DNA of 64,000 nucleotides, taken from IMG/VR virus record IMGVR_UViG_3300032893_000005, positions 64,001-128,000 of that record; one strand, written 5' to 3'. This DNA is from a virus. Below are positions 11,657 to 32,067 of the stretch, piece after piece. Each line of letters begins with the position of its first letter. Within the stretch, counting starts at the first letter, position 1. The translations under genes and the position numbers were made by a program. The notes below the pieces were generated by a model that was not told where the DNA came from, made no database searches, and saw nothing but the letters and a program-made list of their open reading frames with translations.

Positions 11657-12220
11657 ATGAGCAAAGATCTACTGGACAAGCTCCAGGAAGTCATGGAAGA
11701 GCTGTTCGTTCTCTGCGTCCAGTCGGGCGTCAGCGCTCCCGATCCAGTGCTTTACATGCCACGCCGGACAGTAGCGGAGCTGTACAAGTCAAGGCAGAGT
11801 AAGCAGAGCAGCATGCGACAGTTCGAGATGTTCAGCCAGCAGCCCATAGGAGATAGGGATACCCACTTCGACATGGAACTGAACTACGGCAGCCTTGGAT
11901 CTTGCAAGCTACGCATGTTGGAAGAGTGGAACTCGATCAAGCGCAATGATGCATGGGACCTCTTGGCCGTAACAAGCCAGTCCGTATCCTTTCTCCTATC
12001 GATGAAGGAGGCTATGAGGGCTCCTGCTGGCTTGCAAAGGATGGTTAACCCCGCTATCATAGACTACAAGGTTGAAGAGATCGTAAAGCAGTTTAAACGA
12101 ATCAAAGAAAGTATGGCAAATGATGAACAAGCTTATCCTGGTATTCAGCAGTATCCTGATTTCAGCAATGGCATCGGCGAAGGTGGTAGAGCTTTCGACC
12201 CCGGAGCAGCTCAAGACTGA
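11657..12220 (+). CDS. Hypothetical protein; N-terminus weakly resembles a capsid-protein segment
   Basis: Coupled ORF; helix-G-x-P-VLYMP-helix pattern. Confidence 0.6.
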   Translation: MSKDLLDKLQEVMEELFVLCVQSGVSAPDPVLYMPRRTVAELYKSRQSKQSSMRQFEMFSQQPIGDRDTHFDMELNYGSLGSCKLRMLEEWNSIKRNDAWDLLAVTSQSVSFLLSMKEAMRAPAGLQRMVNPAIIDYKVEEIVKQFKRIKESMANDEQAYPGIQQYPDFSNGIGEGGRAFDPGAAQD

Positions 12221-12527
12221 GCTTGCGAAGCCTGGACCTGGCATCGTCCTCCTCTACTCCGCACCGTGGTGTCCCGGATGTCAGTTGTTTCATCCGGTCT
12301 ACGAGAAGTTGTCTGAGAAGATGAAGCCGATCCGCTTCTACGACATCAACATAGACGTAACTGCTCCACTCAAGGAGCATGAAGGTATGGTGCCTTACAT
12401 CCCGACCGCCTTCGTCGGCCACAGCGAAGATCAGCTCCGCAACAGACCGTGCAGGATCTTGAACGATGACCGAGACTTCGACACTGTGAGAGAAGAGATC
12501 GAAGAGTGTCTGAGAAGTACTAAGTAG
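12120..12527 (+). CDS. Thioredoxin-family protein with Sec signal peptide
   Basis: MNKLILVFSSILISAMASA signal; APWCPGC active site; cis-Pro motif YIPT. Confidence 0.88.
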   Translation: MMNKLILVFSSILISAMASAKVVELSTPEQLKTELAKPGPGIVLLYSAPWCPGCQLFHPVYEKLSEKMKPIRFYDINIDVTAPLKEHEGMVPYIPTAFVGHSEDQLRNRPCRILNDDRDFDTVREEIEECLRSTK

Positions 12528-12822
12528 GAGGAGACATGGAAGCAGGAAAGATGGTTGGTTACAAGTTCTCGTTCGGCACTAAGAACGGCGTAATCACCAC
12601 GTCGGTAGACGAGCTTCGCAAGACTCTGTCGCAGTCACCGTACTTCGACAGCGTGGCCATGCGCCCAAACGCGTACGTGGGTGGGTACGACTCGCTGGAA
12701 GTCACCATGACCACGACGCATAACTCTCTCATCGAAGTCATCAACCTGCTCGACGAAGTCAAGGCGATGCTGTCCCTGGCCGACAAGGACTTACTGAGCT
12801 ACTCTGCCTTCATAATGGAGGA

Positions 12823-13248
12823 GTGATGCCTAACTCGATCACCGTTCATACTTCTAAAAGCCCTATCGACCCCTTAGCAGATGGAGTGAAGCTAGACGTC
12901 CTGGTCGCGACACACTTCATGGGCGAAGAAGTCTACGAGGAGCGCTGGGGAAAGCAGAAGCAGTACGGCGCCTTCAGCCTGGGGAAGCCTGACTACTACG
13001 ACAGCGCTGGCGAGATGATCCTGTTCAACCCGCTCCCCTCGTACTCGTACGACATGGCCGATGCGTGGAAGGTCGTCGAGAAGCTGCACGAAGTATCTGG
13101 CGTCTGCGGGTTCACTCTTATGTTCGACGACGACCAGTGGATCTGTAAGCTGGGATGGTCCAACGAAGGCGAAGCGTGTAACGGCATGGGAGTTGCCGAC
13201 ACTGCTCCACTGGCGATCTGCAGAGCAGCACTAGACGCGGTGAAGTGA
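12823..13248 (+). CDS. BC1872-like / phage ABA-sandwich domain protein
   Basis: LD.LVA..FMG, PSYSYDMADAWKVVEKL, TAPLAICRAAL. Confidence 0.75.
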   Translation: MMPNSITVHTSKSPIDPLADGVKLDVLVATHFMGEEVYEERWGKQKQYGAFSLGKPDYYDSAGEMILFNPLPSYSYDMADAWKVVEKLHEVSGVCGFTLMFDDDQWICKLGWSNEGEACNGMGVADTAPLAICRAALDAVK

Positions 13249-15329
13249 TGAAGAGGCTTGAGGGCGAGGTCAGGATAGAGGATGGACGCCTCTTGGTTGA
13301 CGCAGAGCCCCACGTCATGTCCAGACTTCGGCCAATCTTCGACAACGCGACCAACTGGTCCAACCGGGGCAAGTACACCCATCGTCCGATCACGTTCCCG
13401 TTCAACATGACTTCGGCCAAGGACATCCTCTGGATCATGCAGAGGTACAACCTGGCCTGCGATCCCCTGACAGCAAGCAAGATCCAAGAGAAGTCTGACG
13501 AGTATGACCGAGTACTCGAGTCTGTGGTCAACGCGGACAAGGATACGACGTACCGCGTTAGTCCAGAAGCCCTTCAGCTCGCTTTAAGCCTCAGAACCCA
13601 CCAAGTTACCTTCAAGAACGCCATCTGGCAGCTCAAGCGCATGCTCCTGTCCGACAAGATGGGCCTCGGGAAAACCCCGTCCGGCATCTCGATGCTTCAG
13701 GAGCCTGAGTCGCGCCCGGCGCTGATCGTGGTACCGCCGCACCTGTGCTCTCAGTGGGAGCGCGAGGTAAATCGGTTCCTACCCGGCGCCAGCACACACG
13801 TCATACGAGGCTTCAAGAACTACGAGCTGCCCCAAGTCGACGTCTTGATCACAGGATACAACCGGCTCCAGCCGTGGCAGGACACACTCCTGGCCGACAA
13901 GAGTCACTTCAAGACCCTGATAGGCGACGAGATCCAGGAACTGAGGCACACCGGCACCGGAAAGCGCGAGATCTTTCGCATCTTGTCAGAGCGCGTCAAG
14001 TTCTGCGCGGGTCTGAGCGGTACGCCGATCTACAACCACGGTGACGAGATCTGGAGTGTCCTGGACGCCATATCCCCTGAGTGCCTAGGAAGCCGCGACG
14101 AGTTCGTGGAAGAGTGGTGCGGCTGGTCCGGCGTAGTCCGGGAGCCTAGCGTCCTCAACCACTACCTGAAGACACGCGGTCTGATGATGCGGAGGACCCC
14201 GGAAGAAGTTGGGCTCCACTTCGGAGAAGCCTCGAAGCACGTCTACACGCTCGACGCCGACATGAAGCAGCTCGAAGCCGTCCAGAACGTCATGAAGATG
14301 CTGGCCTTGAGCGTGCTGAATGGCAACGTGAACGAGCAGAGCGAGTCTTCCCGCGAGTTCGACTGGAAGCTCCGTCACGCCACTGGAGTGGCTAAGGCTA
14401 GGCCTGTGGCCGAGTTCGTAAAGATGATCTGCGACCAGGGCGACAAGGTTCTCCTGGCCGGTTGGCACCGCGACGTCTACGACATCTGGATGAAGGAGCT
14501 GAAGGCCTACAATCCCGTCATGTACACCGGCACCGAGTCTCCCAAGGAGAAGGACAAGGCCGTCAAGGAGTTCGTCGAGGGGAATGCGAAGGTGTTCATC
14601 ATCAGTCTCAGGTCTGGATCTGGCCTCGATGGGCTTCAGAGAGCCTGCGCGACCGCTGTGTTCGGCGAGCTTGACTGGAGCCCACACGTAATGGATCAAG
14701 TCGTAGCCCGCCTTGACCGCGACGGCCAGACGAAGCACGTCCAGGCGTTCTACCTGACGATCGCCGACGGAGCCGACCCGTTCATGATCGAACTCGTAGC
14801 GAAGAAGCGTGACCAGCACGATGGCGTAGTGGAAGGCAAAGACAGCGCCGGTGAGATCTTGGCGTTCGACAGCGGCGGCAAGGAGCGAATCCGAGAGCTT
14901 GCGAAGTCGTACCTCAAGTCGATCGGCGAAGAGGCAGTAGAAGCTATCCAGGAAGTTGGCCTTCAGGCCGACGTAGCCAATGCCCTGAGGTCAGTCCGAG
15001 TCCCGGTAAACACCGAGGAAGAGATGCAGGCTGCACTCCACGACGTTCTTCCTAAGGTTCTGCCGCAAGACGTCAAGATCGAGCGCGAGGTCAAGATCTC
15101 GAAGCGAAGCCGCCTAGACTTCATGGTCACTCGCGGCGAAGAGCGCGTCGCTATCGAGTGTAAGATCGCATCGACCAAGCGGGCCGAGGTCTACCGGCAA
15201 GTTCGCAAGTACGTGGAAGAAGGCAAGGTCACGTCCGTGGTCTTGTTCGCGCCTTGGTTCGGGATACCAACTTTTAAGGTTGACGAGGTGGTCGTGACTG
15301 TGGTTGACACAGCGGCGGCGTCGCTGTAA
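13245..15329 (+). CDS. SNF2-family helicase with C-terminal PD-(D/E)XK nuclease-like domain
   Basis: DKMGLGKT, DEIQ, LSGTP, ELDWSP...QVVARLDRDGQ; C-terminal EREV...RLDF...IECK...QVRKY. Confidence 0.9.
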   Translation: MMKRLEGEVRIEDGRLLVDAEPHVMSRLRPIFDNATNWSNRGKYTHRPITFPFNMTSAKDILWIMQRYNLACDPLTASKIQEKSDEYDRVLESVVNADKDTTYRVSPEALQLALSLRTHQVTFKNAIWQLKRMLLSDKMGLGKTPSGISMLQEPESRPALIVVPPHLCSQWEREVNRFLPGASTHVIRGFKNYELPQVDVLITGYNRLQPWQDTLLADKSHFKTLIGDEIQELRHTGTGKREIFRILSERVKFCAGLSGTPIYNHGDEIWSVLDAISPECLGSRDEFVEEWCGWSGVVREPSVLNHYLKTRGLMMRRTPEEVGLHFGEASKHVYTLDADMKQLEAVQNVMKMLALSVLNGNVNEQSESSREFDWKLRHATGVAKARPVAEFVKMICDQGDKVLLAGWHRDVYDIWMKELKAYNPVMYTGTESPKEKDKAVKEFVEGNAKVFIISLRSGSGLDGLQRACATAVFGELDWSPHVMDQVVARLDRDGQTKHVQAFYLTIADGADPFMIELVAKKRDQHDGVVEGKDSAGEILAFDSGGKERIRELAKSYLKSIGEEAVEAIQEVGLQADVANALRSVRVPVNTEEEMQAALHDVLPKVLPQDVKIEREVKISKRSRLDFMVTRGEERVAIECKIASTKRAEVYRQVRKYVEEGKVTSVVLFAPWFGIPTFKVDEVVVTVVDTAAASL

Positions 15330-16410: not shown

Positions 16411-16791
16411 GTGAAGTACGTCGCAGTCGTCGTGAACATCAACGGCTCGATAGACTCACAAGGTGAGGTCATCATGGGAGACGTGACGTTTCCAGATCAT
16501 CCGGTGCAGTTCTTCCGTGACAGTGACATAGGTAAGAGTATCAGTGAAGGTGAACCTTTAGGCGTAGCCAAGCTTAGGAAGGAAGGTAACCAAGTCTTCG
16601 CGGACATCGATACCTTCAGTCCCATAGACATATCCGGCATGTACGCGGTTCCCACAGGATCGATAAAGACCAGGAGAGGGAACGTGATCACGGAGTGCAG
16701 CATATCAGGCATCATGTTGACCCCTTCCCCTGCCGACAAAAATCTGTTACCACTTACTAAAGTGGAGGATGACGATGGGCAAGCACGTTAG
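16411..16791 (+). CDS. Prohead-protease-like protein, catalytic residues apparently absent
   Basis: IDSQGEVI...PLG...G.IKTRRGNVITECSISGIMLTPSPAD follows the S78-like protease layout, but the expected His (xxxH) and GFSxG Ser motifs are missing. Confidence 0.55.
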   Translation: MKYVAVVVNINGSIDSQGEVIMGDVTFPDHPVQFFRDSDIGKSISEGEPLGVAKLRKEGNQVFADIDTFSPIDISGMYAVPTGSIKTRRGNVITECSISGIMLTPSPADKNLLPLTKVEDDDGQAR

Positions 16792-17113
16792 CTTCGGAAG
16801 CTCGAGTAGTGGCATCAAGGAACACGTCAAGGGACTCGTGACCTTCGAGTACTACCGCGACGGGAACCTGTTCTACAAGACAGAGTCAGGCCTTCGCTTC
16901 CCGGTGCCGGTCTCAGACATCGGCAACGCCACGTTCATGGCCTCAGACCGCGCCATGCTGTTCATGCGTTGGATCAGGCAGCACCTCGAGATCAACAAAG
17001 GCGTAGCAGTCATGGTCGACGTATCTATAAAGCCCAACGAGGCCAAGCTGGTCGATCCATCGAACCCGGCAAACTCTGTCCTCATCAAGAACATAGGAGA
17101 CGGCAATGGTTAG
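16769..17113 (+). CDS. Conserved phage hypothetical protein
   Basis: VTFEYYRDGNLFYKTESGLRFPVPVSDIGNATF...FMRWIRQH, a recurrent phage family. Confidence 0.7.
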   Translation: MTMGKHVSFGSSSSGIKEHVKGLVTFEYYRDGNLFYKTESGLRFPVPVSDIGNATFMASDRAMLFMRWIRQHLEINKGVAVMVDVSIKPNEAKLVDPSNPANSVLIKNIGDGNG

Positions 17114-17681
17114 GATAGGCAGGCCTCCTCACGTTTACCTGATCGAAGGCCATAATGACATGAGCCACTTTACTCCGAGCGAGTACGTGTGCAACGAGTT
17201 CGTATACGTCACCGACGAACTTTACATGAAGCTCCTCCAGTTCACGGACCCGACGCTCATCGAGGGAACGCAGACCGAGAAGGAAGAGATGAAGTCTGCC
17301 TTGGAGTCATCAGCGGTTAAGTCTCTCGGACCAGGTGAAAGTTCTGCTGATAACTTGATGACTTTCTTGTCCGGCACGTCGCTTGCGCAGCGCATCAAGC
17401 GCGCGATAGACATGAACCCTGGCAAGAGCATGCTCTGGCAGTTCAACGGACTTGGTCCGAACATGAAGGATCAGTACCGTCACGTAGTCGCTATGGGAGA
17501 CCCGAGCCTGCTGCACGTCTGGACTGACTTTGAAGCCTACGTCATCCTGCCCTTGCACCGCATGAGGGTTAAGGCACTGAACAGGATGATCCGCAGACGG
17601 CAGCAGCGTGAGATCGCAAGCTGGGAAGCGTACCTTAAAGAAGTCTACTCAAGGAGAGAAAATGAAACTGCTAACCCTTAG
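17106..17681 (+). CDS. Hypothetical protein
   Basis: 191 aa coupled ORF. Confidence 0.65.
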   Translation: MVRIGRPPHVYLIEGHNDMSHFTPSEYVCNEFVYVTDELYMKLLQFTDPTLIEGTQTEKEEMKSALESSAVKSLGPGESSADNLMTFLSGTSLAQRIKRAIDMNPGKSMLWQFNGLGPNMKDQYRHVVAMGDPSLLHVWTDFEAYVILPLHRMRVKALNRMIRRRQQREIASWEAYLKEVYSRRENETANP

Positions 17682-17886
17682 CCTGATTGCCATGTCGCTG
17701 GCGGCCTGCGCGAGCAAGCCTGTCAAGCAGGAGCCGTCTGAGTACGTGATCGGATGCGCCACTGGCATGTTCATGGTAGCGAAGATGAACAACAGCGTAA
17801 CCGAGGACAACCGAGAAGGACTAACTCAGTTATTTGCTCAGATCTGCATGTCACTTGAACACAGCTACCGGGAGAGGACCAAGTGA
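17662..17886 (+). CDS. Small lipoprotein
   Basis: AAGGAG RBS; MKLLTLSLIAMSLAAC lipobox; two more Cys. Confidence 0.75.
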   Translation: MKLLTLSLIAMSLAACASKPVKQEPSEYVIGCATGMFMVAKMNNSVTEDNREGLTQLFAQICMSLEHSYRERTK

Positions 17887-18164
17887 GGTTCAAGAGTAAG
17901 GTCGTCCACATCGACGCGAAGCAGTGGGACGGCGACTGGCGCGTGCTGTGCGACTGGGCATCGTCCATCAGCGTAGGCAGCGGTACCGGCTTGTCGTACA
18001 ACGGTAAGAGCTTGCAGATCCACACCCTGGAAGGTACCATGTCGGTCGGCATCGGTGATTGGGTGATTTGCGGAACCGAGGGCGAGTTTTATCCGTGCAA
18101 AAATACGGTCTTTCAACGTAAATACGAACCGGCCCCTGAGCCGGAGAGGAGTGGTGCAGTATGA
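17883..18164 (+). CDS. Conserved phage protein (TLEG...GDW...GEFYP family)
   Basis: IHTLEGTM...GDWVICGTEGEFYPCK..VF..KYE. Confidence 0.8.
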   Translation: MRFKSKVVHIDAKQWDGDWRVLCDWASSISVGSGTGLSYNGKSLQIHTLEGTMSVGIGDWVICGTEGEFYPCKNTVFQRKYEPAPEPERSGAV

Positions 18165-19856: not shown

Positions 19857-20462
19857 ATGAGTGACGAAGGATACGACGCAGGACCTTGGGACAAGGATCA
19901 TCCGGCTCCCACGAGCAGCCCAGCAACTGACGACATCAAGGACCAGCCGATAACGCTTAACGGCATGAAGCTGGCGGACGACGAGATCTTGGTCCTCAAC
20001 ATCCAAGGCCCAGACATCGACGCTGACATGATCCAGAACATCCGCACCTCCCTCCGCAGGGAGCTTGGCGAAGGCCGCGTGCTCATCCTTGGAAGCGACG
20101 ACGAGACGACAGTCCAGATGGCTACCATCAAGCAGCCGCCGTCCACTCTCGCGGTGAAGGTCTCAGGTGCTGAAATTTACAAGGCCGTCAAGAACTACAT
20201 CAAGTCGAACGAGGTCATCCACGCCAAGGTCAAGGAAGCCGTCGAGGAGACGATCAAGAAGGGCGCGGTGCAGAACCAGCTCGACCAGATCGTGAAGCAG
20301 CACTTCACCGGCTGGGGATCTGAGAAGAAGCTGACCGAACTCATGAAGCAGGTCATCAGCGACGACTTCAGGAAGCGCGTCGACGCCGAGATCGCAAGTG
20401 CCGTCGAGAAGGTGCTGGAGCGTGCGGTGTTCGTGATGCCTCCGAAGGACAAGCAGACGTGA
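19857..20462 (+). CDS. Hypothetical chimeric protein: portal-like segment plus helical C-terminus
   Basis: ILVLNIQGPDIDADMIQNIRTSL...RVLILGSDDE followed by a K/E-rich helical domain. Confidence 0.55.
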   Translation: MSDEGYDAGPWDKDHPAPTSSPATDDIKDQPITLNGMKLADDEILVLNIQGPDIDADMIQNIRTSLRRELGEGRVLILGSDDETTVQMATIKQPPSTLAVKVSGAEIYKAVKNYIKSNEVIHAKVKEAVEETIKKGAVQNQLDQIVKQHFTGWGSEKKLTELMKQVISDDFRKRVDAEIASAVEKVLERAVFVMPPKDKQT

Positions 20463-20689: not shown

Positions 20690-22865
20690 TCGACTTCAAC
20701 AACTGCATCATGGAGTTCGAGGTTGGACACTACGCGATCGCCGAGGTCGGCGGTGTCCTGACGAAGTACAGGGCATACGAGATCTTAGAGCGACGTCCCG
20801 AAGAAAACCAGCTCCTACTGAGAGATGACAGTAAGGATTCTCCCGTAGAGTTCTGGGTCGACTCTCGATGTTTTCGATACTTCCCGTACAGCGCAGTCGT
20901 CTTCGCTGAGGGTGAGCATAAGACCATCGACGAGCTTCTGCACGAGATCGCCTACTCCTGGGACCACACCTACTGGCCATCGACACTACATAAGGACGAA
21001 GATGGCTTGTTCCACGTCAACAAGCTAACGATCAGCCCGTTCTGGACTGAGTACAAGGGTCAGTACGAGAAGGTCGCGCCGGGGCTCTACGAGTACCTGT
21101 GCCGCATATACGAGGTGATCGAGGAAGCCCGCGAGAAGTTCGGGAAGCCTAAGATGTTCGACGGGACGGAGGTTCAGGATGAGTAACTTTCTGCAGATGC
21201 TTAAGAAGGCCCGCAAAGACCTCATCGACGCAGGCATGAGCTACAGGGACGTGAGCGAGCTGATCACGAACGGCCAAGTCTCCTTCGACACTTCGCTAGA
21301 CGACCAAGCAGAGCAGATGAAGTGGAAGCTGAAGAAGCTTGGACTTAAGGTTGACATAACGACGACCGAGTCGAGTCACTACAACAGAGAGTCACACAAG
21401 ATGTGGGTCCGCCTGTGAAGACGGTTGACATCTACGAGCCTGGCGACAAGATCAGCCTCTACTCGTGCCCGCGCTGCGGTCGCAACGTCTACAACGAGGT
21501 GACAGGTGTCGACTGCTACGGAGCCAACGACATCACCACCTACATCAAGTGCCTAGGCTGTAACTTGCTCTACTGGTTCAGCTCGTTTACTGGCAGAACA
21601 AACACTAACGGGAACGATGCCGCATGAAAACTCTGAAGTACGTCTTAGGATCTGCTGCCATCCTCTACGCGATGGGGAGCCTAGTCATGCTAGTGTCTGG
21701 GCTTCAGGATAGTCAGTGGGGTCCGATGTTCTCAGACTGCAGGACTGACAAGAACCACCTTGAGCAGATCTTCTTACCGGCATACTCAGCCGGATGCTGG
21801 CTGGGGCACAAGTGAGCGCCGCAGACAAGAGGCACGCCAACCACGGAGAAGTATTCAGCGGGTCGATAATGATCCAGCAGGGCTACGCCATAGCCACGAT
21901 GAACACCTGCGCGATGTTCCAAGACCGTGGACTACACGGCTCATCAGGGGACGTCAACGGTAGAGCCATCATGATCAACAGGAGCAACTCTATAATGGGG
22001 TCGGAGGAAGCCTGGGAGAGGAACAAAGCTCTCTTGGAGTCCAACGATGACTAGGCAGCAGAAGATCAACTTGATCAAGGTCCTTCGATGTTCGCTCAAG
22101 TCAGAGAACATCACTGATTACTGTGACGGCGACGGAATAGGTTACTCCAGCACTGCAAGCTACTCCAGAGATGTAGCGGTGAAGCATAACGACGAGCTGA
22201 GGGCGTTCATAGCCATCTTGACTCGGGAAGTGAAGAAGAGTAAGATCTAGGTAGCTCTAGGAGGGACTTATGAGCGATCTGGCTGCATACCTTATCGGTT
22301 TCATCGGATTCTTGATCTTCGTCTACAAGATCATACGCGTTCTGACGCCTCAGAACGACCTCATGGACGCCATCGACACCTCCCTCCGCTTCGCTTACTG
22401 CGAACTCCGAGACGCTGAGGACGAGGTTGGCAAGCGCTTCTACATGAACCAGATTGAGACGCTCAACCGAGCACTCTCTGACGCCGCTCGAGGCGGTGTG
22501 CCGGAGGACTTCGCATGACCTGGGACAAGGCGCAACGCTTCTTCAACGGTGCGATCGTCGGCGCAGGCGCAGCCCTGATCATCGCCTTCGCTATCGGACA
22601 GGTAACTGCCTGGATGTTCTTCTGGTTCGGAACCTGGACCGGGCTAGCGATCGGAACTAAGATCGTCCGGTACTGGAGGAGTCGATGAAGACCACTAACC
22701 AGCCACTCATCCTACCAGCTCCGCGCAAGGAGAAGAACGGCGTCTTCTTTGACCCCTACAACTGGAAGTGCAACACCGACAACGGCAGGAAGAACTCCGC
22801 CGACTCACGCCGCAAGACGAAGTTCAAGCCACGAACGATCGCTGACGTCATCGCAGAGCGTGAGA

Positions 22866-23183
22866 ATGGCGAGCGATAACCACGTCCACATCTTCGTCAA
22901 GCCTTTCCAGATCTGGCCCTTCAAGAAGGTCTGGTATCGATCGCTCTGCGGTCGCGAGAAGTCAGAGTACCCGCACCTAGACCAGGCCGACCTGTCCTGC
23001 AAGCACTGCGCTGCTAGGCTCGAAGATCGCGGGGTCTGGAAGGAGTATCGCAGGTCCCAGATGAAGTTCTCAGCCCTCAAGTCTTTCAGAGAGGCTTTCG
23101 GCGAAGAGAAGTTTGAGAACAGGGCCTTCGCCCTTGAGAACCATGTCACCAGCCTCGACTACTTCACGGAGGATGAGGCATGA
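22866..23183 (+). CDS. Zinc-binding hypothetical protein (tandem paralog 1)
   Basis: H...SLCG...CKHC. Confidence 0.7.
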   Translation: MASDNHVHIFVKPFQIWPFKKVWYRSLCGREKSEYPHLDQADLSCKHCAARLEDRGVWKEYRRSQMKFSALKSFREAFGEEKFENRAFALENHVTSLDYFTEDEA

Positions 23184-23404
23184 CTCACATCTTCCTGATG
23201 CCATTTCGCATCTACCCGTCCAAGAAGATATGGTACAAGTCCTTGTGCGGCGCTGAGAAGTCCGAGTCTCAGCAGGTCGGTTACACCAACTGTCACGTGT
23301 GCGATCACCTCAAGGAGCACAACCAAGTGCACATCATCAGGGCTCAGTTTGACCAGCACGTCACGAGTGCTCCGGTCAGCTTCAGGGTTCCGGTGATAGG
23401 ATGA
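23180..23404 (+). CDS. Zinc-binding hypothetical protein (tandem paralog 2)
   Basis: H...SLCG...CHVC. Confidence 0.7.
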   Translation: MTHIFLMPFRIYPSKKIWYKSLCGAEKSESQQVGYTNCHVCDHLKEHNQVHIIRAQFDQHVTSAPVSFRVPVIG

Positions 23405-24315: not shown

Positions 24316-24673
24316 TGACCACCCGGAAGCAGTTTGAAGAAGCAGTCGAAGTAATCCAAGCAGCGCTCCGAGAGAAGCTGGTGATCGATGACCTCTATCA
24401 GCCCACAGGAGTGGACCAGGTTTACATCAACAGTCACACTGCTTGCCCCATAAATTACAGCAGCGACATCGACTTCGGTGGATGGACCGTCTGCGATAGC
24501 CGCAAGCTGTGCATTCGCACGGAAGCTGATGTTCTGAAAGAGCAGCTCGATCAAGCTGAGAAAGAACATAAGGAAAACTTGAGCAAAGTATCTACGGCAA
24601 ACATCCTGTCATCTCACTCTGCTACCAAGGTGGAAGAGCTGAAGATGAAGCTCGCTCAGCTCGGGAAGTATCC

Positions 24674-25039
24674 ATGAACCGTCGTGGCTTCATCCGTGGC
24701 ATGCTTGCGGCAGCAGCGCTCGCCGCTGTTCCGTTCAAGTGGGCGTTCAAGCAGACGTCCAAGGTCTTCACTGGCGCAAGGGCTAGGATCTTCATTAACG
24801 GTAAGTTAATCGCTTACACAGGCGAAGTTACCGTATCCTACGATCCCAAAGATTTATCCATGCATACTATTGGACAGTACAAACCTGAAGAAGTTAATCT
24901 AGGACCAGTTGAGTTCACTGCTACTGTCACGCGTGTAGTAAAGGGTTCTGAGTGGGACAAGCTCATGAGCCTTTCTGACGAAGACCGCGAAGCTCTCTTG
25001 AACGAGAATCCGCCAGTTCGTCGCGAGGACATCACATGA
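24674..25039 (+). CDS. Twin-arginine signal fused to a tail-tube-like domain
   Basis: MNRRGFI + hydrophobic stretch; VFTGARARIFINGKLIAYTGEVTV aligns with LVTGASSKVVVNGKVVGFATNVTI of 47314-47754. Confidence 0.72.
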   Translation: MNRRGFIRGMLAAAALAAVPFKWAFKQTSKVFTGARARIFINGKLIAYTGEVTVSYDPKDLSMHTIGQYKPEEVNLGPVEFTATVTRVVKGSEWDKLMSLSDEDREALLNENPPVRREDIT

Positions 25040-25486
25040 GTCAGCATGACCTTGGCATCATATACGAGAACGAAGTCGCAACTGTGCAAGAGTTCGAGAT
25101 CGAGAACAAGCCGTACGGCTGCCACTCTGAGTACGTCGTCAAGCACAAGACCTTGCCGTGCGTTCCTAAGTGGTTCAACGAGCAAGACGGTTGGGACGCT
25201 CGCAAGAAGGCGATAGCCTACTGCGACAACTACGATAGGCAGATGGTCATATGAAGAAGCCTAAGATCTTAGTCGGATTCTTCAACCAGGCTGGAGGCTT
25301 CACGAAGGGAAGCGTAACGGCTTCGTCCATGACTGACGTCATCATAGAGAAGTGGGCTTACGACAAGCTCGTCGTTGGCCTCAGAGAGCTTCACAAGGAG
25401 CTTATCCTCTCTCCAGACGACGGTATCCGCCCGATAGTAGTTGCCAAGGTAGTGAAGACTCTGCTTGAGGAAGTTGGGGAGAAGCC

Positions 25487-25816
25487 GTGACTAACGGAAG
25501 CTGGATCGGCGTAGACCTTGACGGGACGCTCGCCCACTACGATGGCTGGAAGGGTCCTGAGCATATCGGTGAACCTGTTCCTATAATGATGGCCCGCGTT
25601 AAAACTTGGCTTGCTCAAGGCCGTCGTGTTAAGATCATGACAGCTCGAGCTAGTGATCCCGCACAGGTCGTCCACGTCAAAAAGTGGCTGGTCAAGCATG
25701 TCGGGATCGAGCTTGAGGTTACGAACGTAAAGGACTTCCAGATGGTTGAGCTTTGGGACGATCGGGCAGTGCAAGTGATCCCGAACACAGGCCGAAGAGT
25801 GGACGGTATGCCATGA
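25487..25816 (+). CDS. HAD-superfamily phosphatase (PNKP-like)
   Basis: WIGVDLDGTLA, IMTAR, VTNVKD...LWDDRAV. Confidence 0.85.
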   Translation: MTNGSWIGVDLDGTLAHYDGWKGPEHIGEPVPIMMARVKTWLAQGRRVKIMTARASDPAQVVHVKKWLVKHVGIELEVTNVKDFQMVELWDDRAVQVIPNTGRRVDGMP

Positions 25817-26167
25817 ACACGATCGACATCGTGAGCATGCACGTAGAAGTCCTCGAGATCGCCGAGCAGGTAAGGAATGCTCCTGCTGGCGTTAGCCTCG
25901 ACCTACTTGATGCCCGCCTAGAGGCCATGAAGAGAAAGCTCCTGGCTGACATAGACGAGCGCTTAGAAGAGATTGCGCGAGAGGAGATGGGCTGATGGAG
26001 ACCTACACGACTGAGCCGTTACAGATCCCAGACAACGCCATGAGGCACCTAAGGACGATGTACCCCGGCCACTTCGACGATCAGGAGATCGTTGAGAAGT
26101 TTGTGACTGAGTGCATAATGAAGTTGCTCGATCCCCAGGAAGAGATCAACAAGTTGGAGGAAACCCC

Positions 26168-26353
26168 GTGAAGTACCTTATCCTTGCCCTTGTCCTGATG
26201 GCTGGATGCTCGAAGGGGCCGGACCCGATCGAAGTCTGCCGCGACTACTGCACTGGTTACCTTGACACCATAGTAAGGATCGGGACCGAGCGCAGCGACA
26301 ACCTTTACCACTGCCGCTGCAGCAACAGCGGGAAGAGGAACGGCGATGAGTAA
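26168..26353 (+). CDS. Small Cys-rich lipoprotein
   Basis: GGAGG RBS, GTG start, KYLILALVLMAGC lipobox; CxxxC and CxC. Confidence 0.7.
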   Translation: MKYLILALVLMAGCSKGPDPIEVCRDYCTGYLDTIVRIGTERSDNLYHCRCSNSGKRNGDE

Positions 26354-28012
26354 GGTTAAGATGACCGTAGCCAAGCTGAAGACGATCAAGGAGATGCGGG
26401 ACCTAGCCCTCAAGCGCTTCAACAAGCTGGACGCGCAGCTCCGTAAGGCCTGCACGCATCCCAAGCGCATGTGCTACACTACCGAGAGCTACCATACCGA
26501 TACCCTTGGGAACAACGGATACGGTGAGTACCAAGACCACTGCGGCTGCTGCGAAGCTTATCTTGGAGAGTCTTATAGAGCTGACGACCGTCGCTACGGT
26601 GGTACCATGAACGAGCCAAACTACGAACTGAGAGAGGACTAACGTGAGGTACCTGGTCAAGATAACCTTGCCTGACGGCGAGCAGGTCGAAGGTCAAGTA
26701 GTCCATCCCGACGGCCCGGACGGGCCAAAGCCTAAGGATCTTCGGCAGGCTCGCGAGATCGCTAAGAACATGCAGTGGCTGGACCAGAATGACGGTGAGT
26801 CTGTCAACGTCGTGAACAAGAAGAAGATAAAGGTGTGGGAAGCATGAGATCGATAGACTTCGGAGAATATGGACAGGGCGCTCGCTGGGTAACGCTGGAG
26901 CAGGCTGACGAGGCCAGAGAACTTCGACTAAGCTGTCAAAGCGGCATAGGTCAAGTATTCATGCACAAGGAGTACGGCGACATCATCATAGCGTGGCCTG
27001 TGAGCTTTGACTCGCACTACCAGCCCGGCCAACCCACCAAGCACACTATCCATTACAAGATCGAGGGTGAACATTCACCTGGTTCCTACTACGCCGACAT
27101 GAGGGGTAATCCGTTCCTGTACAACTTCGAGTACCTAGGGGAGTTCGGAGACATGCATGAAGATTAACGCTGGGTTCGAGCAGAAGGATAAGACGCGCAT
27201 AGTCTGGATCATTGACCAGAACCTCAACGTAGTGAGGGTTCGCGCCAGGTACAGAGCTGCGTTCTCGAGCTGGTCGTACACGTCCGTCGACGGTAAGTCA
27301 GGCGGTTCCCACCTGTTCCCGTACTATCCGACCGTCGGCATGGGACGTCGCTCCTACTACGGAGACGGCCCGCACTACACGACTCGCAGCGAAGCCGTCG
27401 AAGACCTGCGCCCCATCGTACTGAAGGTCATGCGAGAACTCAGGAAGAGCATGCGAAAGGCCTTGAACTCACAGCTCGAAGAGTTGCGGAGTAAGCTCTG
27501 ATGGAGACCGTGGAGGAACTCAAGGCTGAGGTCAGTCGCTTATCCACCGAACTGCTCGAGTGGGAGACTTCCTACACGGTAAAGCGCTTCAACAAGAGCA
27601 TCGCCCAGTCGATCCAGGACCTCGTGATGACGATCGGCTATCGCCACGATCCGAAGCAGTTTAAGATCATGCTGCCCCAGACTGTCATAGACATCTTCAA
27701 CGAAGAGCGCGACGAGTTCAACGACCGCGATACGAAGGTTACCTGGGACGCAGAGACTAGATCTCTGCAGCGCTTTCCTGTTAAGATAAGGAAAAACTTC
27801 CTAGAGTACATGGGAGTCGAAGTGGAGCTGGTGCCTTATGAGTAGGGAAGATATGATCGACGACCTAATAACGGCTGACGTTAAAGAGATCGTAGACGCT
27901 GTCAAAGCAGGCAACGAGTACACGCCAGGCGACATCCGCCACATCCTCGCTTACGGTCGTGGGTACGATACCTGGACCGACGAGGAAGTCTTGAAAGAGT
28001 GGAAGGAACGGC

Positions 28013-28531
28013 ATGAGTGACGAGATGTTCTCAAACTTTGGCTCTGACCAGTCTGCGGTCCTTGACACAAGCGCTGTCCTGACTCAGGAGATCATCGAAG
28101 AGGCCGCGCAGCGTTGCCTGGACAACTTTGGCCAGTACGATCCGCCTTACATGGTCAGTCCTGAGACCTACGCCCACCTTGAGCTGCACCATAACCCCGT
28201 CTTCTACGACATCGTAGTCGAAGCGTACGTCACGCACCGTGGCCGGGTATCCAAGCGCCGGTTTAAGAACATCCTAAAGATGCGCAAGAAGCTCTTCGCA
28301 AAGATCATGATGGAGCACCTGTCCAACGAGAACGCCCATACCGTAGGCCGCCAGATCTACATGGCGATGGGAGCCAAGGCTGCGTGCGAGGAACTCGAGA
28401 AGTACCAGGACTCACCGGCCAAGGAAGCGGCACTCGCCCTGGTTACCTCCAAGGACCCTATCCGCTTCACGACAGACCACGTCCCTACCGGCTTCAAGCT
28501 CTACCGAGGCGAAGATGGTACAGACACCTAA
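28013..28531 (+). CDS. Hypothetical protein with capsid-like N-terminal segment
   Basis: VLTQEIIEEAAQRCLDNFG...YMVSP. Confidence 0.55.
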   Translation: MSDEMFSNFGSDQSAVLDTSAVLTQEIIEEAAQRCLDNFGQYDPPYMVSPETYAHLELHHNPVFYDIVVEAYVTHRGRVSKRRFKNILKMRKKLFAKIMMEHLSNENAHTVGRQIYMAMGAKAACEELEKYQDSPAKEAALALVTSKDPIRFTTDHVPTGFKLYRGEDGTDT

Positions 28532-28830: not shown

Positions 28831-30039
28831 ATGAAGACCAAGAACCAAGAAGATAAGCCTGCGACCCCAGTCCCATCGCTGCTGACGTACTCTGCACTGA
28901 AGCGTCAGACACGCCTGACGGATGAAGAGATGATGCTCATCGTCCGTAAGTACTTTGCCTGCGAAGGATTCTTGAGCGAGAAGACTGAGGCTGCAATTAA
29001 CAGCCCTCTGTTTAACGACTATAACTTCAAGTCAAGACTCTTCATCGAAATACTTAAAGTCGAGGCTTCGTCTATGAAGCTGTACAATAGTGAGGACATA
29101 TACGACTACATGGTCGACACCAAGCTCATCAACAAGAGCGCAGAGTCCCGGCTTGCTGTCATAAGCACCGTGAGTAACCTCGTGAACGACGGCAAGCTTC
29201 GCGGCCTAGACTACGCACTCGTGAACTTCGACAACGGCAAGCGAGAGAGTAGGCTCTACCGCTTCGAAGACGTGCAAGGCCGGATCATCAAGAAGTTGCT
29301 CAAGCATGTGACCGTGAAGTCGCACCGCGTGGTGAAGGCTGAGCCCGTGATCAAGGCTGGCGAAGGGAAGAAGACCATCATCAGGAAGAGTACTACGGTT
29401 ACCCAGCCAACTTCGAAGGAAGTGTCCGAGCTTAAGGCTCAGCTCGCGTCTGCCAACGAAACGATCGTGCGCATGACTGCGGAGAACGAGTCTCTGAAGG
29501 AAGAGCTGAGGACGCTCAGGAACTTGGAGCGGAGCAGTATCCAGAAGATCTTGGAAGCTACGACCAGCATCGAGGAGAAGCTGTCCAAGTCCGCGCCGCA
29601 GCCGACGCCAAGACCAACCGCAGAAGTCGCCCAGCCCTTGCCCATAGACCAAGTTTTGGACATACCCGTATCGATCACCGATGCTCGGCTGACGACGCCA
29701 GACAACCACCTGTGCCTGGTGCTACTCAACTACCTAACGCGGACGAGGGGTCCGTACACCACCAAGGTTGAGACCTTGAACTTGTGGGAAAAGTGGCTCG
29801 ACGACGCCACTGACGGAAACCTCCTGCCGGGCCAGATGTACTGCGTAGTTCACAACTACGTCCTCGGTGTCTTGAACAACTACACGTTCCTGCAGTCTCA
29901 GTTCTCCAACCTGTACGACACTACCAAGACGTACCTGACGGCGAACGCTGAGGGTAAGAAGAACTACGTGAACTTGCTTGGGCAGTGGCAGGCAAACACC
30001 AACCGTACCGTTCCAGTTACTGGTAACATCGTCGTATGA
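28831..30039 (+). CDS. Coiled-coil protein, possible DNA-binding regulator
   Basis: AAAAGGAG RBS; central heptad region EVSELKAQL...EELRTLRNLE; Pro-rich linker. Confidence 0.7.
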   Translation: MKTKNQEDKPATPVPSLLTYSALKRQTRLTDEEMMLIVRKYFACEGFLSEKTEAAINSPLFNDYNFKSRLFIEILKVEASSMKLYNSEDIYDYMVDTKLINKSAESRLAVISTVSNLVNDGKLRGLDYALVNFDNGKRESRLYRFEDVQGRIIKKLLKHVTVKSHRVVKAEPVIKAGEGKKTIIRKSTTVTQPTSKEVSELKAQLASANETIVRMTAENESLKEELRTLRNLERSSIQKILEATTSIEEKLSKSAPQPTPRPTAEVAQPLPIDQVLDIPVSITDARLTTPDNHLCLVLLNYLTRTRGPYTTKVETLNLWEKWLDDATDGNLLPGQMYCVVHNYVLGVLNNYTFLQSQFSNLYDTTKTYLTANAEGKKNYVNLLGQWQANTNRTVPVTGNIVV

Positions 30040-30948
30040 ACAAGGGCGACGTCGTCAACCTCACAGAAGACTTCGAGTACCTGGGCGTCGGGCGCACGAG
30101 CCTCGGCGTCATAGTGAGCATAGCAGACACCGATGTAGAGGTGAAGTTCGTCGGTCGTCGTGGTACGATCATATGTCAACTGGATGAGTTAAAGGTGGTG
30201 CAAGATGGAGAAGAACGTAATGGCTAAGGTGTACGTAATTGCGTACCTGATCTTACTGGGAACGCTGCTCGGCTTCGTGGCAGGCGGCATCGTCCAGAAG
30301 CACGAGATGAAGCCGATCGTACTGCACGACTTCAACGTGGGCCGGAACCAGGGCTTCGTGATCGGCTGCCAGTTCGCAGCCTCGAGCATGCGCGGGGTCG
30401 ATCCAGGTGATCCGTTAGTTGAGATGTACAAGGAGTGGTGCACGAAGAACGCGATGGCCTTCAGCAAGATGGCGGATAAATGAAGATGATCAACGAGGTC
30501 AGGATAAAGGCTCCCATGCGCCAGGTGATCGAGGTTCCAGACGCTCGGTACGACCGCGAGTGGAAGACCTACTTCTTGCCGATCACCGTCACGGAAGAGC
30601 ATCCTAAGGACAGTAATCCCATATCAGAGCTTGTCACGATCTGCCTCAACGACAAGGCAGACGCAGAGAGGCTCATCAGCCTGATCAGGAAGGCGACGAG
30701 GAAGATCAAGTGAGCGAGTACGGCTATCACTACAACGTGATTCAGACCAACGGCGAAGGCTGGCACGTCCTGACCTTGATGGAGGACTACCAGCAGCATG
30801 GGTATGAGTCGTTCGGAACGATGGTCGACGCGAAGACTGGCGTCCTCTGCATACTGATGCGCAAGCCGATGACCGCCGAAGAAGCTAGGCAGAAGCGCAT
30901 GAAGTGGGCCATTGACCAAGAGCGTCGTGAGAAGAAGGCTAGGTCAAA

Positions 30949-31602
30949 GTGAAGGTCTCGTTCGACGAGAAGATCAACCTGCTGCACGTCACTTACCCGA
31001 CCCAGGTCGAGCTGGCTCAGGCACTCGCTCGCTTCCAGGAACACTACGAGAACCCAGAACTTCGCGGCAAGGTCTTTACCCTAGGAGAACTCCGCGAGTG
31101 GTACACCAATTTCCACGGAGCTTGGACGTACTACGTGGACTGGAGCGGTTTTAACTTCCCATCGCACGTCCTCGAATACTTCAAGGACGGATCGTTTGAT
31201 CCCCTGACTGCACTGGAAGAGGAGTTCCTGGAAGCCGTCCGCTACCGGCGCGGCAAGTTCTACATCATCGGAACCTACGATGGCGACGACTCCACGGTCA
31301 AGCACGAGAAGCTGCACGCACTCTGGTACTCAAACGAGGCCTACAAGGAAGAAGTGCAGAAGTACTTCTCGATATGCTTTCACCTGAGCCCGCTGGCCGC
31401 TCACCTCCGCAAGAAGGGCTACCACGAAGAAGTCATCGAGGATGAGATGCAGGCGTACCTTGGAGCTTCGCACGAGTACCTGCAGGACCAAGGGCTGATC
31501 ACGACGAACTGCGACATGAGCCCAGAAGCTCACTTATTTACTCACGCCTTGAAGATCGAAGAGATCGCTAACAAGTACCTGGAAGCGCAGAGGGGAAGAT
31601 AA
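30949..31602 (+). CDS. Conserved protein with HExxH (zincin-like) motif
   Basis: RFQEHYE.P, DWSGFNFP, YIIG...KHEKLHALWY, DEMQAY. Confidence 0.7.
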   Translation: MKVSFDEKINLLHVTYPTQVELAQALARFQEHYENPELRGKVFTLGELREWYTNFHGAWTYYVDWSGFNFPSHVLEYFKDGSFDPLTALEEEFLEAVRYRRGKFYIIGTYDGDDSTVKHEKLHALWYSNEAYKEEVQKYFSICFHLSPLAAHLRKKGYHEEVIEDEMQAYLGASHEYLQDQGLITTNCDMSPEAHLFTHALKIEEIANKYLEAQRGR

Positions 31603-32067
31603 GTGAACGGCAGCCTACTCCACTTCGAGAAGACGGACAAGGTCGTCGTTCACTACGCGAAGCTCAACTCCGTGGACCTGGGGGTCGAATTCTTCACGAT
31701 GATCATGAGGCCGATCGCGTTCGCGACGCCAAGCCACGAGTACGTGAGGGTAGGTTACCAGGAGATGATGGCTGATCCGCGCGGGGCCTTGGGATGCCTG
31801 AAGCGGGCCGTGCTGAAGCGCTACGTGGGCATGCTGAACGCATCTGTCAACTCTTCAGACGAAGAGAGGCTGATGCAGGAGGCTGGCTTAGGATGGATGT
31901 GGGAGATCAACGACGTCGAGCTTGTCGAGTGTCGCCTGCTTGTCCCGAAGATGCCTGTCTACGACGTGCCGCACGCTCTGCTCGTCTCTCACGTAGCCGA
32001 TGCTCACGTCCTTCCTCATCCAGAAGGTTATGCACCGCCACTCGCATTCCAAGAACTGCAGCAATAA
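31603..32067 (+). CDS. Hypothetical protein, last gene of + arm
   Basis: GTG directly after upstream stop; converges on the - arm. Confidence 0.6.
   Translation: MNGSLLHFEKTDKVVVHYAKLNSVDLGVEFFTMIMRPIAFATPSHEYVRVGYQEMMADPRGALGCLKRAVLKRYVGMLNASVNSSDEERLMQEAGLGWMWEINDVELVECRLLVPKMPVYDVPHALLVSHVADAHVLPHPEGYAPPLAFQELQQ

What the first reader, a model, noticed from the sequence alone, without database searches (positions are those of the whole stretch)
11657..32067. Possible virion-protein decoy set: early-arm ORFs built from fragments of tube, protease, portal and capsid proteins
Seen: far from the structural operon, on the opposite strand and among early genes, several small ORFs carry short segments patterned like essential virion proteins and joined to unrelated sequence. 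These are tail tube (24674, aligns to 47314 in this window), prohead protease without catalytic residues (16411), portal clip region (19857) and major capsid (28013, 31603; weaker 11657, 27501). Established: these protein classes are known triggers of bacterial immunity (DSR2-tail tube, Avs4-portal, CapRel and Lit-major capsid, some CBASS-prohead protease). Inference: the phage expresses non-assembling mimics early to occupy or mask structural-protein sensors, or to poison assembly of co-infecting relatives. Apart from the tube match, the resemblances rest on my recall of family patterns and need testing.
Basis: partly seen in the sequence, partly recalled or inferred. Interest (0 to 1): 0.85.

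Follow-up and report, generated by a model that had tools for sequence, protein, structure and literature searches.

The report
Virion-part mimics among phage accessory genes
A 154-kb wetland phage related to Myxococcus phage Mx1 carries, among its small non-structural genes, at least four real genes that copy a short piece or the fold of its own capsid, portal, tail-tube and head-protease proteins; the same copied pieces recur in related phages, so they look selected, but what they bind is unknown.

Summary
Three of the seven named ORFs are confirmed:
- 24674: N-terminal ~60 aa of the tail tube behind a Tat-like leader (profile E 1e-7 to 6e-9, hhalign 94-97%).
- 28013: its first 50 aa match a conserved segment of the major capsid protein (59-sequence profile E 3e-9).
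- 16411: confident model with the capsid-protease fold, and no conserved His or Ser in its family.

ORF 19857 is inconclusive. ORFs 11657, 27501 and 31603 gave no match to any virion protein.

Shuffled and reversed decoy sets gave nothing below E 0.05 for these profiles. None of the roughly 50 profiles for other protein families gave a comparable segment hit.

The same modules recur in related metagenomic phages, fused to different sequences. This argues for selection, not debris.

Function is untested. I favour competitive binding by mimicry, most likely against incoming or co-infecting related phages. The Tat-like leader on the tube mimic points to the periplasm. The immune-sensor decoy idea remains open at about 20%.

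The parts
16411..16791 (+). 126-aa stand-alone protein with the capsid-maturation-protease (assemblin/prohead protease) fold and no conserved catalytic His or Ser. It belongs to a family of 112-148-aa proteins.
   Evidence: phmmer found 22 family members, aligned as A1. AF2 pLDDT 89.6. Structural matches: VZV protease Z 8.2 and T4 gp21 Z 7.2; BFVD prohead proteases at E 1e-5 to 1e-4. Weak profile-profile link to the phage's own protease, aa 81-110 against 143-172, E 5.5e-4. Family present in G007 and in 4 of 16 further relatives. Best coding frame is the annotated one.
23180..23404 (+). 74-aa protein whose last 29 residues (nt 23315-23401) copy a conserved portal motif ending in R-x-P-V-I-G. 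The motif lies at or next to the portal clip domain.
   Evidence: Portal profiles E 1e-3 and 6.9e-4 with 82 sequences. hhalign 83%. A 67-aa ORF in relative G006 ends in the same motif, pairwise E 8.8e-7, while its N-terminal part differs. Position: the motif ends 6 residues before the residue that aligns with phage 812 Lys334, which PMC12886913 assigns to the clip. GGAGGA lies upstream of the ATG.
24674..25039 (+). 121-aa protein in three parts. A twin-arginine-type leader covers aa 1-25 (nt 24674-24748). A tail-tube N-terminal module covers aa 28-90 (nt 24755-24943). An acidic variable tail follows. The C-terminal ~60 residues of a real tube are absent.
   Evidence: PHROG 3776 E 7e-5. Tube profile E 5.6e-9. 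hhalign 94-97%. Pfam TAT_signal 20.1 bits against a cut-off of 22.7. TIGR01409 is passed by homolog P0003 (17.9 against 16.7), while the window's protein scores 14.6. Homologs P0003 and P0004 are 51% identical, with leader and first strands near-invariant. No out-of-frame continuation of the tube similarity.
28013..28531 (+). 172-aa protein whose first ~53 residues (nt 28016-28171) copy a conserved major-capsid-protein segment (MCP ~191-242). The remainder is unrelated, basic and probably helical.
   Evidence: E 3.1e-9; 95%. The whole protein is an ORFan in 5.8 billion proteins. The module recurs in small ORFs of G005 (114 aa), G013 (90 aa) and G016 (128 aa, at the C-terminus). It is 43-54% identical to MCPs of other lineages but 38% to the phage's own.
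19857..20462 (+). 201-aa protein, probably starting at Met37.
   Evidence: hhalign to portal 318-365: 3.6% for the single sequence and 5.9% for the two-sequence profile. No hit with the 82-sequence portal profile. One homolog, P0029, begins at Met37. The Atlas model has low confidence.
47314..47754 (-). 146-aa tail-tube paralog in the baseplate module. It is the reference for the tube match, not part of the mimic set.
   Evidence: PHROG 985 E 8.5e-6. 28% identical to the sheath-adjacent tube at genome 147462-147929. Orthologs occur in Mx1 and other relatives.

Best explanation
SHOWN
- The + strand accessory arm encodes at least four small proteins built around copied parts of virion-morphogenesis proteins.
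- These are a dead prohead-protease fold (16411), a portal clip-region motif (23180), the N-terminal strands of the tail tube behind a Tat-like leader (24674), and a conserved capsid-protein segment (28013).
- The copied parts behave as modules. In related phages the same modules sit at the N-terminus, middle or C-terminus of otherwise unrelated small proteins.

INFERRED MECHANISM
- Each module keeps one binding surface of its parent protein but cannot assemble. The protein therefore acts as a competitive binder of whatever that surface normally contacts.
- The most likely targets are the entry and assembly machinery of incoming or co-infecting related phages (superinfection exclusion or inter-phage interference).
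- The tube mimic would be exported or anchored facing the periplasm. There it would engage the tip or channel of an incoming contracted tail, as T4 Spackle engages the incoming tail lysozyme.
- The portal-clip, capsid and protease mimics would act in the cytoplasm on terminase or adaptor docking, capsomer contacts and protease substrates.

The confidence given is for the inferred mechanism. That the modules themselves are real I hold at about 0.9 for 24674, 28013 and 16411, and about 0.75 for 23180.
For: Reality of the matches
- Searches support the sequence matches, with decoy controls.
- Searches support the protease fold.

Specificity
- I ran 55 family profiles covering replication, tail, baseplate and head genes.
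- Among the hits that rose above the decoy range, only the MCP, portal and tube ones were genuine segment matches to small ORFs.

Selection rather than decay
- All ORFs score best in their annotated frame.
- No out-of-frame remnants flank the matches.
- The leader and first tube strands are near-invariant across three phages at 51% overall identity.
- The portal motif is the conserved part of the 74-aa and 67-aa pair.
- The MCP module recurs in four different protein contexts.
- The protease-fold family has 22 clusters and occurs in 6 of the related genomes searched.

Periplasmic reading of the tube mimic
- RR motif with a moderately hydrophobic stretch, KD 1.9-2.1.
- TAT models score near or above threshold.

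Portal clip
- The clip is the portal part exposed outside the capsid, where the adaptor binds (PMC12886913).

From my own knowledge, not tested here
- T4 Spackle and Imm are early, envelope-located exclusion proteins.
- Satellites use virion-like proteins to interfere with their helper phage.
Against: - No binding, localisation, timing or phenotype data exist. The phage is known only from wetland metagenomes.
- The G006 tube-like homolog lacks the leader, so export is not universal.
- The window's own leader scores just under both curated TAT cut-offs, and no clear signal-peptidase site is visible.
- Fragments of a beta-sandwich or of the capsid A-domain need not fold or bind on their own. AF2 could not model 24674 (pLDDT 41).
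- Mimics of the phage's own proteins would be expected to disturb its own assembly too.
- The 23180 match is short (29 aa), and the segment hits in L012 and L013 are marginal to moderate (E 1.5e-3 to 6e-6).
- Mx1, the only cultured relative, has no such ORFs.
Confidence: 0.35

Rival explanations
1. Immune-sensor decoys. The copied surfaces are those that host pattern-recognition defences read on capsid, portal, tube and protease proteins. The early-made fragments would occupy the sensors without letting them oligomerise or fire.
For: The four parent proteins are among the virion proteins reported as defence triggers. A 2026 preprint reports Avs proteins recognising the conserved core folds of MCP, tail tube and other virion proteins (10.64898/2026.01.04.697583). 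The modules match the most conserved segments of their parents and are closer to the clade consensus than to the phage's own MCP. That is what mimicry of a conserved epitope would give. The genes lie in a hypervariable accessory arm, where anti-defence genes usually sit.
Against: No precedent turned up in the literature search. From my own knowledge, fragments of triggers (for example the T4 Gol peptide with Lit) activate rather than block the defence. The Avs sensors in the preprint read extended core folds, not 30-50-aa pieces. The tube mimic's export leader takes it away from cytoplasmic sensors. The host and its defences are unknown.
Confidence: 0.2
2. Reused scraps. Illegitimate recombination or homing-endonuclease traffic dropped short in-frame pieces of conserved virion genes into the accessory arm. 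The resulting ORFs now do something unrelated to mimicry, or nothing.
For: The arm is highly mosaic, and few of its genes are shared even with relatives whose MCP is 70% identical. EndoVII- and HNH-type homing genes sit next to structural genes. 28013 as a whole is an ORFan. Profiles detect conserved motifs best, which biases detection toward them.
Against: Random capture should sample replication and tail genes as well, yet about 50 such profiles gave no comparable hit. Random capture would also rarely be in frame. The copied part is the conserved part of each small-protein family while the rest varies. The non-matching parts have no nuclease signature.
Confidence: 0.2
3. Helpers or passengers of the phage's own virion. 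The modules serve as tags or adaptors that deliver the small proteins into the prohead or onto portal or tail. Alternatively they time the phage's own assembly, for example by holding protease or capsid subunits inactive until late.
For: This phage does share motifs between head proteins. Protease aa 221-251 is 61% identical to MCP aa 2-32. Small ORFs in relatives carry that same MCP N-terminal motif (G007_92_361 E 1.6e-6, L013_10049 E 1.5e-3), like a capsid-targeting sequence. Stand-alone protease-fold proteins occur in several cultured phages.
Against: The modules in this window are internal pieces (MCP 191-242, portal 329-355), not terminal targeting peptides. The genes lie on the strand and arm of the replication genes, far from the head and tail modules. 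An export leader makes no sense for a virion passenger.
Confidence: 0.13
4. Chance resemblance.
For: The matches are short. Pairwise BLAST E-values are only 1e-3 in an all-against-all setting.
Against: E-values improve as the profiles deepen: 28013 goes from 5e-7 to 3e-9 and 23180 from 1e-3 to 7e-4. Nine decoy sets gave nothing below 0.05. The modules are found independently in other genomes.
Confidence: 0.02

Closest known systems
T4 Spackle (gp61.3) and Imm, and other superinfection-exclusion proteins such as HK97 gp15 and TP-J34 Ltp (own knowledge)
   Same: These are small phage proteins made before lysis and located in the envelope. They act on a component of an incoming tail or on DNA entry. 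The 24674 protein has a leader that would place a tail-derived module in or facing the periplasm.
   Different: None of those proteins is built from a piece of a virion protein. Here neither export nor exclusion has been shown, and three of the four mimics have no leader.
Satellite interference proteins: P4 Sid, SaPI CpmB and Ppi, PICI Rpp, PLE TcaP (own knowledge)
   Same: They bind a phage's morphogenesis proteins through surfaces that resemble or complement virion proteins, and so redirect or block assembly.
   Different: Those are encoded by satellites against a helper phage and are full domains. Here a lytic-type 154-kb phage carries 30-60-aa modules of proteins like its own.
DSAD1, the phage inhibitor of DSR2 that competes with the tail-tube trigger (own knowledge)
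   Same: It is an accessory phage protein that counteracts a sensor of a virion protein.
   Different: As far as I know DSAD1 is not a tube homolog. No sensor is known for this phage's host.
Prohead maturation proteases: T4 gp21 (PDB 5jbl), HK97-type S78, herpesvirus assemblins
   Same: The 16411 model shares their beta-barrel core (Z 5.2-8.2, about 104 residues aligned; BFVD E to 1e-5).
   Different: It is about 60% of the size, has no conserved His or Ser, has no Pfam or PHROG membership, and lies outside the head module. Its nearest structural neighbours are uncharacterised 120-139-aa proteins of Microbacterium phages Cressida and Tyrumbra and Vibrio phage River4.
T4 internal proteins with a capsid-targeting sequence, such as IPI* (own knowledge)
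   Same: Short shared peptide motifs direct small accessory proteins to the prohead. Related phages have small ORFs starting with the MCP N-terminal motif that the protease also carries.
   Different: The modules in this window come from internal segments of MCP and portal, not N-terminal targeting peptides.

Membership tests
Prohead maturation protease (assemblin fold; T4 gp21 / HK97 S78 type) | Beta-barrel protease core fold | tested here: met
   AF2 pLDDT 89.6. The top four PDB matches are all capsid proteases, Z 8.2-5.2, clearly above the next hit at 4.5. 38 BFVD hits at E<=1e-3, many annotated as prohead protease.
Prohead maturation protease (assemblin fold; T4 gp21 / HK97 S78 type) | Conserved catalytic His and Ser | tested here: not met
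   The 19-sequence alignment A1 has only G51, A53, G83 and D109 invariant, with no conserved His or Ser column. Residue-by-residue superposition on a solved protease was not available.
Prohead maturation protease (assemblin fold; T4 gp21 / HK97 S78 type) | Sequence-family membership and position in the head module next to scaffold and MCP | tested here: not met
   No Pfam, PHROG or NCBIfam hit for it or its 18 relatives. The phage's real protease is at genome 17064-18014. 16411 lies about 63 kb away on the other strand.
Contractile-tail tube protein (PHROG 985 type) | N-terminal strand motif of the tube | tested here: met
   24674 aa 28-85 against tube profile positions 3-58, E 5.6e-9. Family against family 96.8%.
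Contractile-tail tube protein (PHROG 985 type) | Complete ~150-aa tube domain able to form rings | tested here: not met
   The alignment stops at about tube residue 95. The C-terminal ~60 residues are absent from all four family members, and nothing continues in another frame.
Tat-exported proteins | Twin-arginine leader recognised by curated models | tested here: inconclusive
   Pfam TAT_signal 20.1 against cut-off 22.7. TIGR01409 gives 14.6 for the window's protein and 17.9 for P0003, against cut-off 16.7. N-R-R-x-F-I motif plus a 13-aa stretch of KD about 2. The G006 homolog has no leader. No obvious A-x-A cleavage site.
HK97-fold major capsid protein | Full capsid-protein fold | tested here: not met
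   Only aa 2-53 of 28013 match (MCP 191-242). The remaining 120 aa match nothing. From my recollection of the HK97 sequence, the segment is the strand-helix-strand around A-domain helix alpha5. This was not tested.
Portal protein | Wing-stem-clip-crown architecture | tested here: not met
   Only 29 aa of the 74-aa 23180 product match. The position at the clip was derived from the alignment to the phage 812 portal and from Lys334, which PMC12886913 places in the clip.
Anti-defence decoy of virion-protein sensors (hypothetical class) | Binds a sensor of the parent protein without activating it | not testable with these tools
   The host and its defences are unknown. No such class appeared in the literature searched.
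Superinfection-exclusion proteins | Early expression, envelope location, block of infection by related phages | not testable with these tools
   Only gene position and the leader bear on this. No RNA run holds the sequence.

The most novel reading that the evidence does not exclude
This phage clade keeps a toolkit of trigger mimics. These would be minimal copies of the exact capsid, portal-clip, tube and protease surfaces that bacterial pattern-recognition defences (Avs, CapRel, DSR2, CBASS-type sensors) read. Made before the real virion proteins, they would blind those sensors. That would be a counter-defence principle not yet described, and the modules would map the epitopes that immunity recognises.
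Probability: 0.2. Interest if true: 0.92.

Novelty: new variant of a known kind. Interest (0 to 1): 0.68.

Why it matters
Small accessory genes of large phages are mostly unexplained. Here a subset can be read: they are built from recognisable, conserved pieces of the virion machinery and recur as movable modules across a clade of soil and wetland phages.

If they act by mimicry, there are two possible pay-offs. Either they reveal a way for phages to exclude or sabotage relatives using copies of their own parts, or they are the first trigger-mimic inhibitors of virion-sensing immunity. Either way the modules point to which 30-60-residue surfaces of capsid, portal and tube proteins matter for binding.

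The approach is cheap and can be applied to any phage group. It consists of scanning accessory ORFs with deep profiles of the same clade's virion proteins, alongside decoy controls.

Tried and rejected
- Megablast of the region against 50,697 phage records: no match.
- tblastn of 16411 against the same records: no match.
- Pfam, PHROGs and NCBIfam on the seven ORFs: only the tube and TAT hits.
- AF2 of 24674 with a 6-row alignment: pLDDT 41, unusable, so no fold search was run.
- Complex prediction of the sheath-adjacent tube with 24674 aa 26-121: no verdict. This counts neither for nor against binding.
- Sequencing runs: no RNA holder is listed. Three wetland DNA runs hold the stretch or part of it. 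The contigs of the other two runs that lie on it are essentially identical to it (one differing letter), so no dN/dS could be computed.
- Sigma-70 promoter and terminator scan of 13-32.5 kb: no more sites than in shuffles.
- ESM Atlas: 19857 has a low-confidence model with no meaningful neighbour. 31603 has no model.
- Contexts of two 16411 homologs: contigs under 1 kb, uninformative.
- 19857 against a scaffold-like protein (E 4e-3): the alignment is low-complexity Ala/Ser/Pro/Asp, so I discounted it.
- Mx1 small ORFs: no virion-segment hits.
- IMG/VR relatives G001-G004 lack the accessory arm, so no orthologs could be compared there.
- Idea that the matches are decayed whole-gene copies: rejected, because no similarity continues in other frames.
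- Paper search for Avs4, portal and clip together: nothing.
- tRNA and Rfam scans of the window: nothing.


Full report
CONTEXT

The window is bases 64001-128000 of a single 154,091-bp phage contig. It is known only from wetland metagenomes.

The major capsid protein (MCP) is 51% identical to that of Myxococcus phage Mx1 and about 26% to SPO1-group MCPs. It also matches SPO1 Gp6.1 and the phage 812 MCP among solved structures.

PHROG scans place the morphogenesis genes outside the window:
- MCP at genome 14003-15391.
- Prohead protease at 17064-18014.
- Portal at 21200-23281.
- Large terminase at 24571-26439.

There are two tube-like paralogs. One lies next to the 935-aa sheath at 147462-147929. 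The other is in the window's baseplate module at 47314-47754.

The finding's region is the distal part of a + strand arm running from about genome 32 to 96 kb. That arm begins with replication genes and continues as dozens of tightly packed small ORFs. 'Early' is an inference from this layout only. A promoter scan showed nothing above chance, and no RNA data exist.

TESTING THE SEVEN ORFS

Sequence libraries gave one real signal. ORF 24674 matches PHROG 3776 (7e-5), which the tube paralog 47314 also matches, and it carries a TAT-signal hit just under threshold.

I then compared all candidates with the phage's own MCP, protease, portal, tubes, sheath and scaffold-like protein, using Smith-Waterman scores with 300 shuffles each. 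Only two pairs stood out:
- 24674 against the tubes (z 12.3 and 9.1).
- 28013 against the MCP (z 7.5, p 4e-5).

An all-against-all BLASTP of every ORF of 45 aa or more recovered the same two pairs.

PROFILES AND CONTROLS

I built profiles of MCP, portal, protease and tube from the phage plus IMG/VR relatives and Mx1. I then built 55 family profiles covering all genes conserved among these genomes. These were searched, with all HMMER filters off, against 444 ORFs of the window's accessory arm and of two metagenomic contigs that carry a 24674 homolog.

Real homologs aside, the hits below E 0.005 were:

| Profile | Target ORF | E-value |
|---|---|---|
| Tube | 24674 family | 1e-7 |
| MCP 193-242 | 28013 | 1.5e-6 |
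| Portal 263-289 | 78-aa ORF of L012 | 2e-4 |
| MCP 24-48 | 94-aa ORF of L013 | 1.9e-3 |
| Portal 345-373 | 23180 | 2.9e-3 |
| Scaffold-like protein | 19857 (low-complexity, discounted) | 4.3e-3 |

None of the roughly 50 replication, tail, baseplate or other profiles produced a hit of this kind. Reversed and shuffled versions of the target set never went below 0.0097.

Deeper profiles made the real hits stronger:
- With 82 portals, 23180 reached 6.9e-4 and the L012 ORF 6e-6.
- With 59 MCPs, 28013 reached 3.1e-9.

Against these deep profiles, nine decoy sets gave nothing below 0.05.

hhalign gave 94% for 24674 against tube, 95% for 28013 against MCP and 83% for 23180 against portal. Every other candidate-family pair scored 3.6% or less.

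ORFs 11657, 27501 and 31603 therefore have no support. ORF 19857 aligns weakly to the same portal region as 23180 (3.6%, or 5.9% with its one homolog), and I leave it as inconclusive.

THE PROTEASE CLAIM

ORF 16411 has no sequence-family hit. An exhaustive phmmer search nevertheless found a family of 112-148-aa proteins.

With that alignment AF2 gave a confident all-beta model (pLDDT 89.6). A Foldseek-independent comparison with 48,161 PDB chains ranked four capsid proteases first: VZV, T4 gp21, HCMV and KSHV, at Z 8.2 to 5.2. The next fold scored 4.5.

Against viral predicted structures there were 38 hits at E<=1e-3. They include many annotated prohead proteases and protease-MCP fusions, with small uncharacterised proteins of cultured phages at the top.

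The family alignment has no conserved His or Ser. A weak profile-profile link to the phage's own protease exists (E 5.5e-4).

ANATOMY OF THE MATCHES

All eight ORFs examined score best in their annotated frame under a codon model trained on the phage's long genes. Purine-rich ribosome-binding-like stretches precede the starts of 19857, 23180, 24674 and 28013.

The similarity is confined to 29-60 residues, and nothing continues in other frames. These are therefore not decayed gene copies.

- 24674 covers tube residues 1 to about 95 and lacks the last ~60. Its leader (N-R-R-x-F-I plus a 13-residue hydrophobic stretch) and first strands are nearly invariant in two metagenomic homologs that are only 51% identical overall. 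One of those homologs passes the TIGR01409 cut-off.
- 23180 ends exactly with the portal motif. Aligned to the phage 812 portal, the motif stops six residues before Lys334, which the structure paper assigns to the clip domain. The clip is the part outside the capsid that inserts into the adaptor (PMC12886913).
- The 28013 segment corresponds, by my recollection of the HK97 sequence, to the strand-helix-strand around A-domain helix alpha5. I did not test this.

RECURRENCE IN RELATIVES

Relatives with 63-70% identical MCPs mostly break or differ in this arm. I fetched four larger relatives in full and searched sixteen more.

- G006 has a 67-aa ORF ending in the same portal motif as 23180 (pairwise E 8.8e-7) with a different N-terminal half. 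It also has a leaderless 100-aa tube-N-terminus protein 5.5 kb downstream.
- The MCP module recurs in three contexts: in the middle of a 114-aa ORF (G005), at the N-terminus of a 90-aa ORF sharing 28013's own variant residues (G013), and at the C-terminus of a 128-aa ORF (G016).
- The dead-protease family is present in G007 and in 4 of 16 further genomes.
- The first 60 residues of 28013 hit the MCP in all 16 of those genomes, at up to 49% identity. Identity reaches 54% in the wider set, against 38% to its own MCP. The module is therefore old or travels between lineages, and is not a recent self-duplication.
- Mx1 itself has none of these ORFs.

INTERPRETATION

Recurrence, conservation of the copied part against a variable remainder, and restriction to MCP, portal, tube and protease together argue that the copied surfaces are what selection keeps. 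The simplest function for a non-assembling copy of an interface is competitive binding.

I cannot tell from sequence which partner is targeted. I put interference with incoming or co-infecting relatives first, at about 0.35. My reasons:
- The best-conserved member carries an export-type leader.
- Envelope-located exclusion proteins that act on incoming tails are established biology (T4 Spackle).
- A decoy for cytoplasmic sensors should not be exported.

The remaining readings, with my estimates:
- Sensor decoy, about 0.2. It remains viable for the three leaderless members and would be the more novel outcome.
- Reuse of recombination scraps without mimicry, about 0.2.
- Roles in the phage's own assembly or packaging, about 0.13. 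A shared MCP N-terminus motif on the protease and on small ORFs of relatives shows that this clade does use short shared motifs among head proteins.

LIMITS

- The 23180 match and the hits in L012, L013 and G010 are short.
- The phage's host is unknown.
- There are no expression, localisation or binding data.
- Structure prediction failed for 24674, and the single co-fold attempt gave no verdict.

Noticed in passing
L001:17064-18014 (-) and L001:14003-15391 (-), outside the window: The prohead protease carries, at aa 221-251, a segment 61% identical to the MCP N-terminus (aa 2-32; E 5.7e-6). The same cross-match appears in relatives. Small ORFs in relatives begin with this MCP N-terminal motif (G007_92_361 E 1.6e-6, L013_10049 E 1.5e-3). 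It may be a prohead-targeting or cleavage motif.
   Followed up: partly
window 47755-48923: A 1.17-kb stretch between the tube paralog and the 531-aa gene has no ORF longer than 133 aa on either strand. It has no tRNA and no Rfam match. GC is 0.51.
   Followed up: partly
window 46849-47301 (-); genome 63496-63924 (+); L001:7553-8119 (-): Endonuclease VII / HNH-type genes are scattered next to structural and other genes (PHROG 2914 E 8e-34). Two of them are 35% identical paralogs. They are probably homing endonucleases.
   Followed up: no
genome 147462-150754 (L006) versus window 33358-63897: The sheath and its tube lie about 20 kb away from the baseplate and fibre module that holds the second tube paralog. 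Tail genes are therefore split into at least two blocks, as in Mx1.
   Followed up: no
window 19857-20462: The only homolog (P0029, 165 aa, 50% identical) starts at Met37 of this ORF. The residues before Met37 are Ala/Ser/Pro/Asp-rich, so the true start may be 19965. However, GGAGG lies upstream of the first ATG.
   Followed up: partly
window 1-32100 versus relatives G001-G009: This arm is a hypervariable mosaic. Only about 17 of 71 ORFs have any homolog in four near-complete relatives, in shuffled order, and several IMG/VR contigs end at its borders. The SNF2-type helicase at 13245-15329 is the best-conserved gene (62-65% identity).
   Followed up: partly
window 23180-23404: Ahead of the portal motif, the 74-aa product has Cys and His residues spaced C-x17-C-x2-C-x-H. 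This could be a small zinc-binding site. The G006 counterpart does not share it.
   Followed up: no
L012:13233-13469 and L013:10049-10333 (metagenomic contigs carrying 24674 homologs): Small ORFs within 1-3 kb downstream of the tube-mimic gene carry other virion motifs: portal wing-stem junction 252-279 (E 6e-6) and MCP 27-50 (E 1.5e-3). This suggests such genes cluster.
   Followed up: partly
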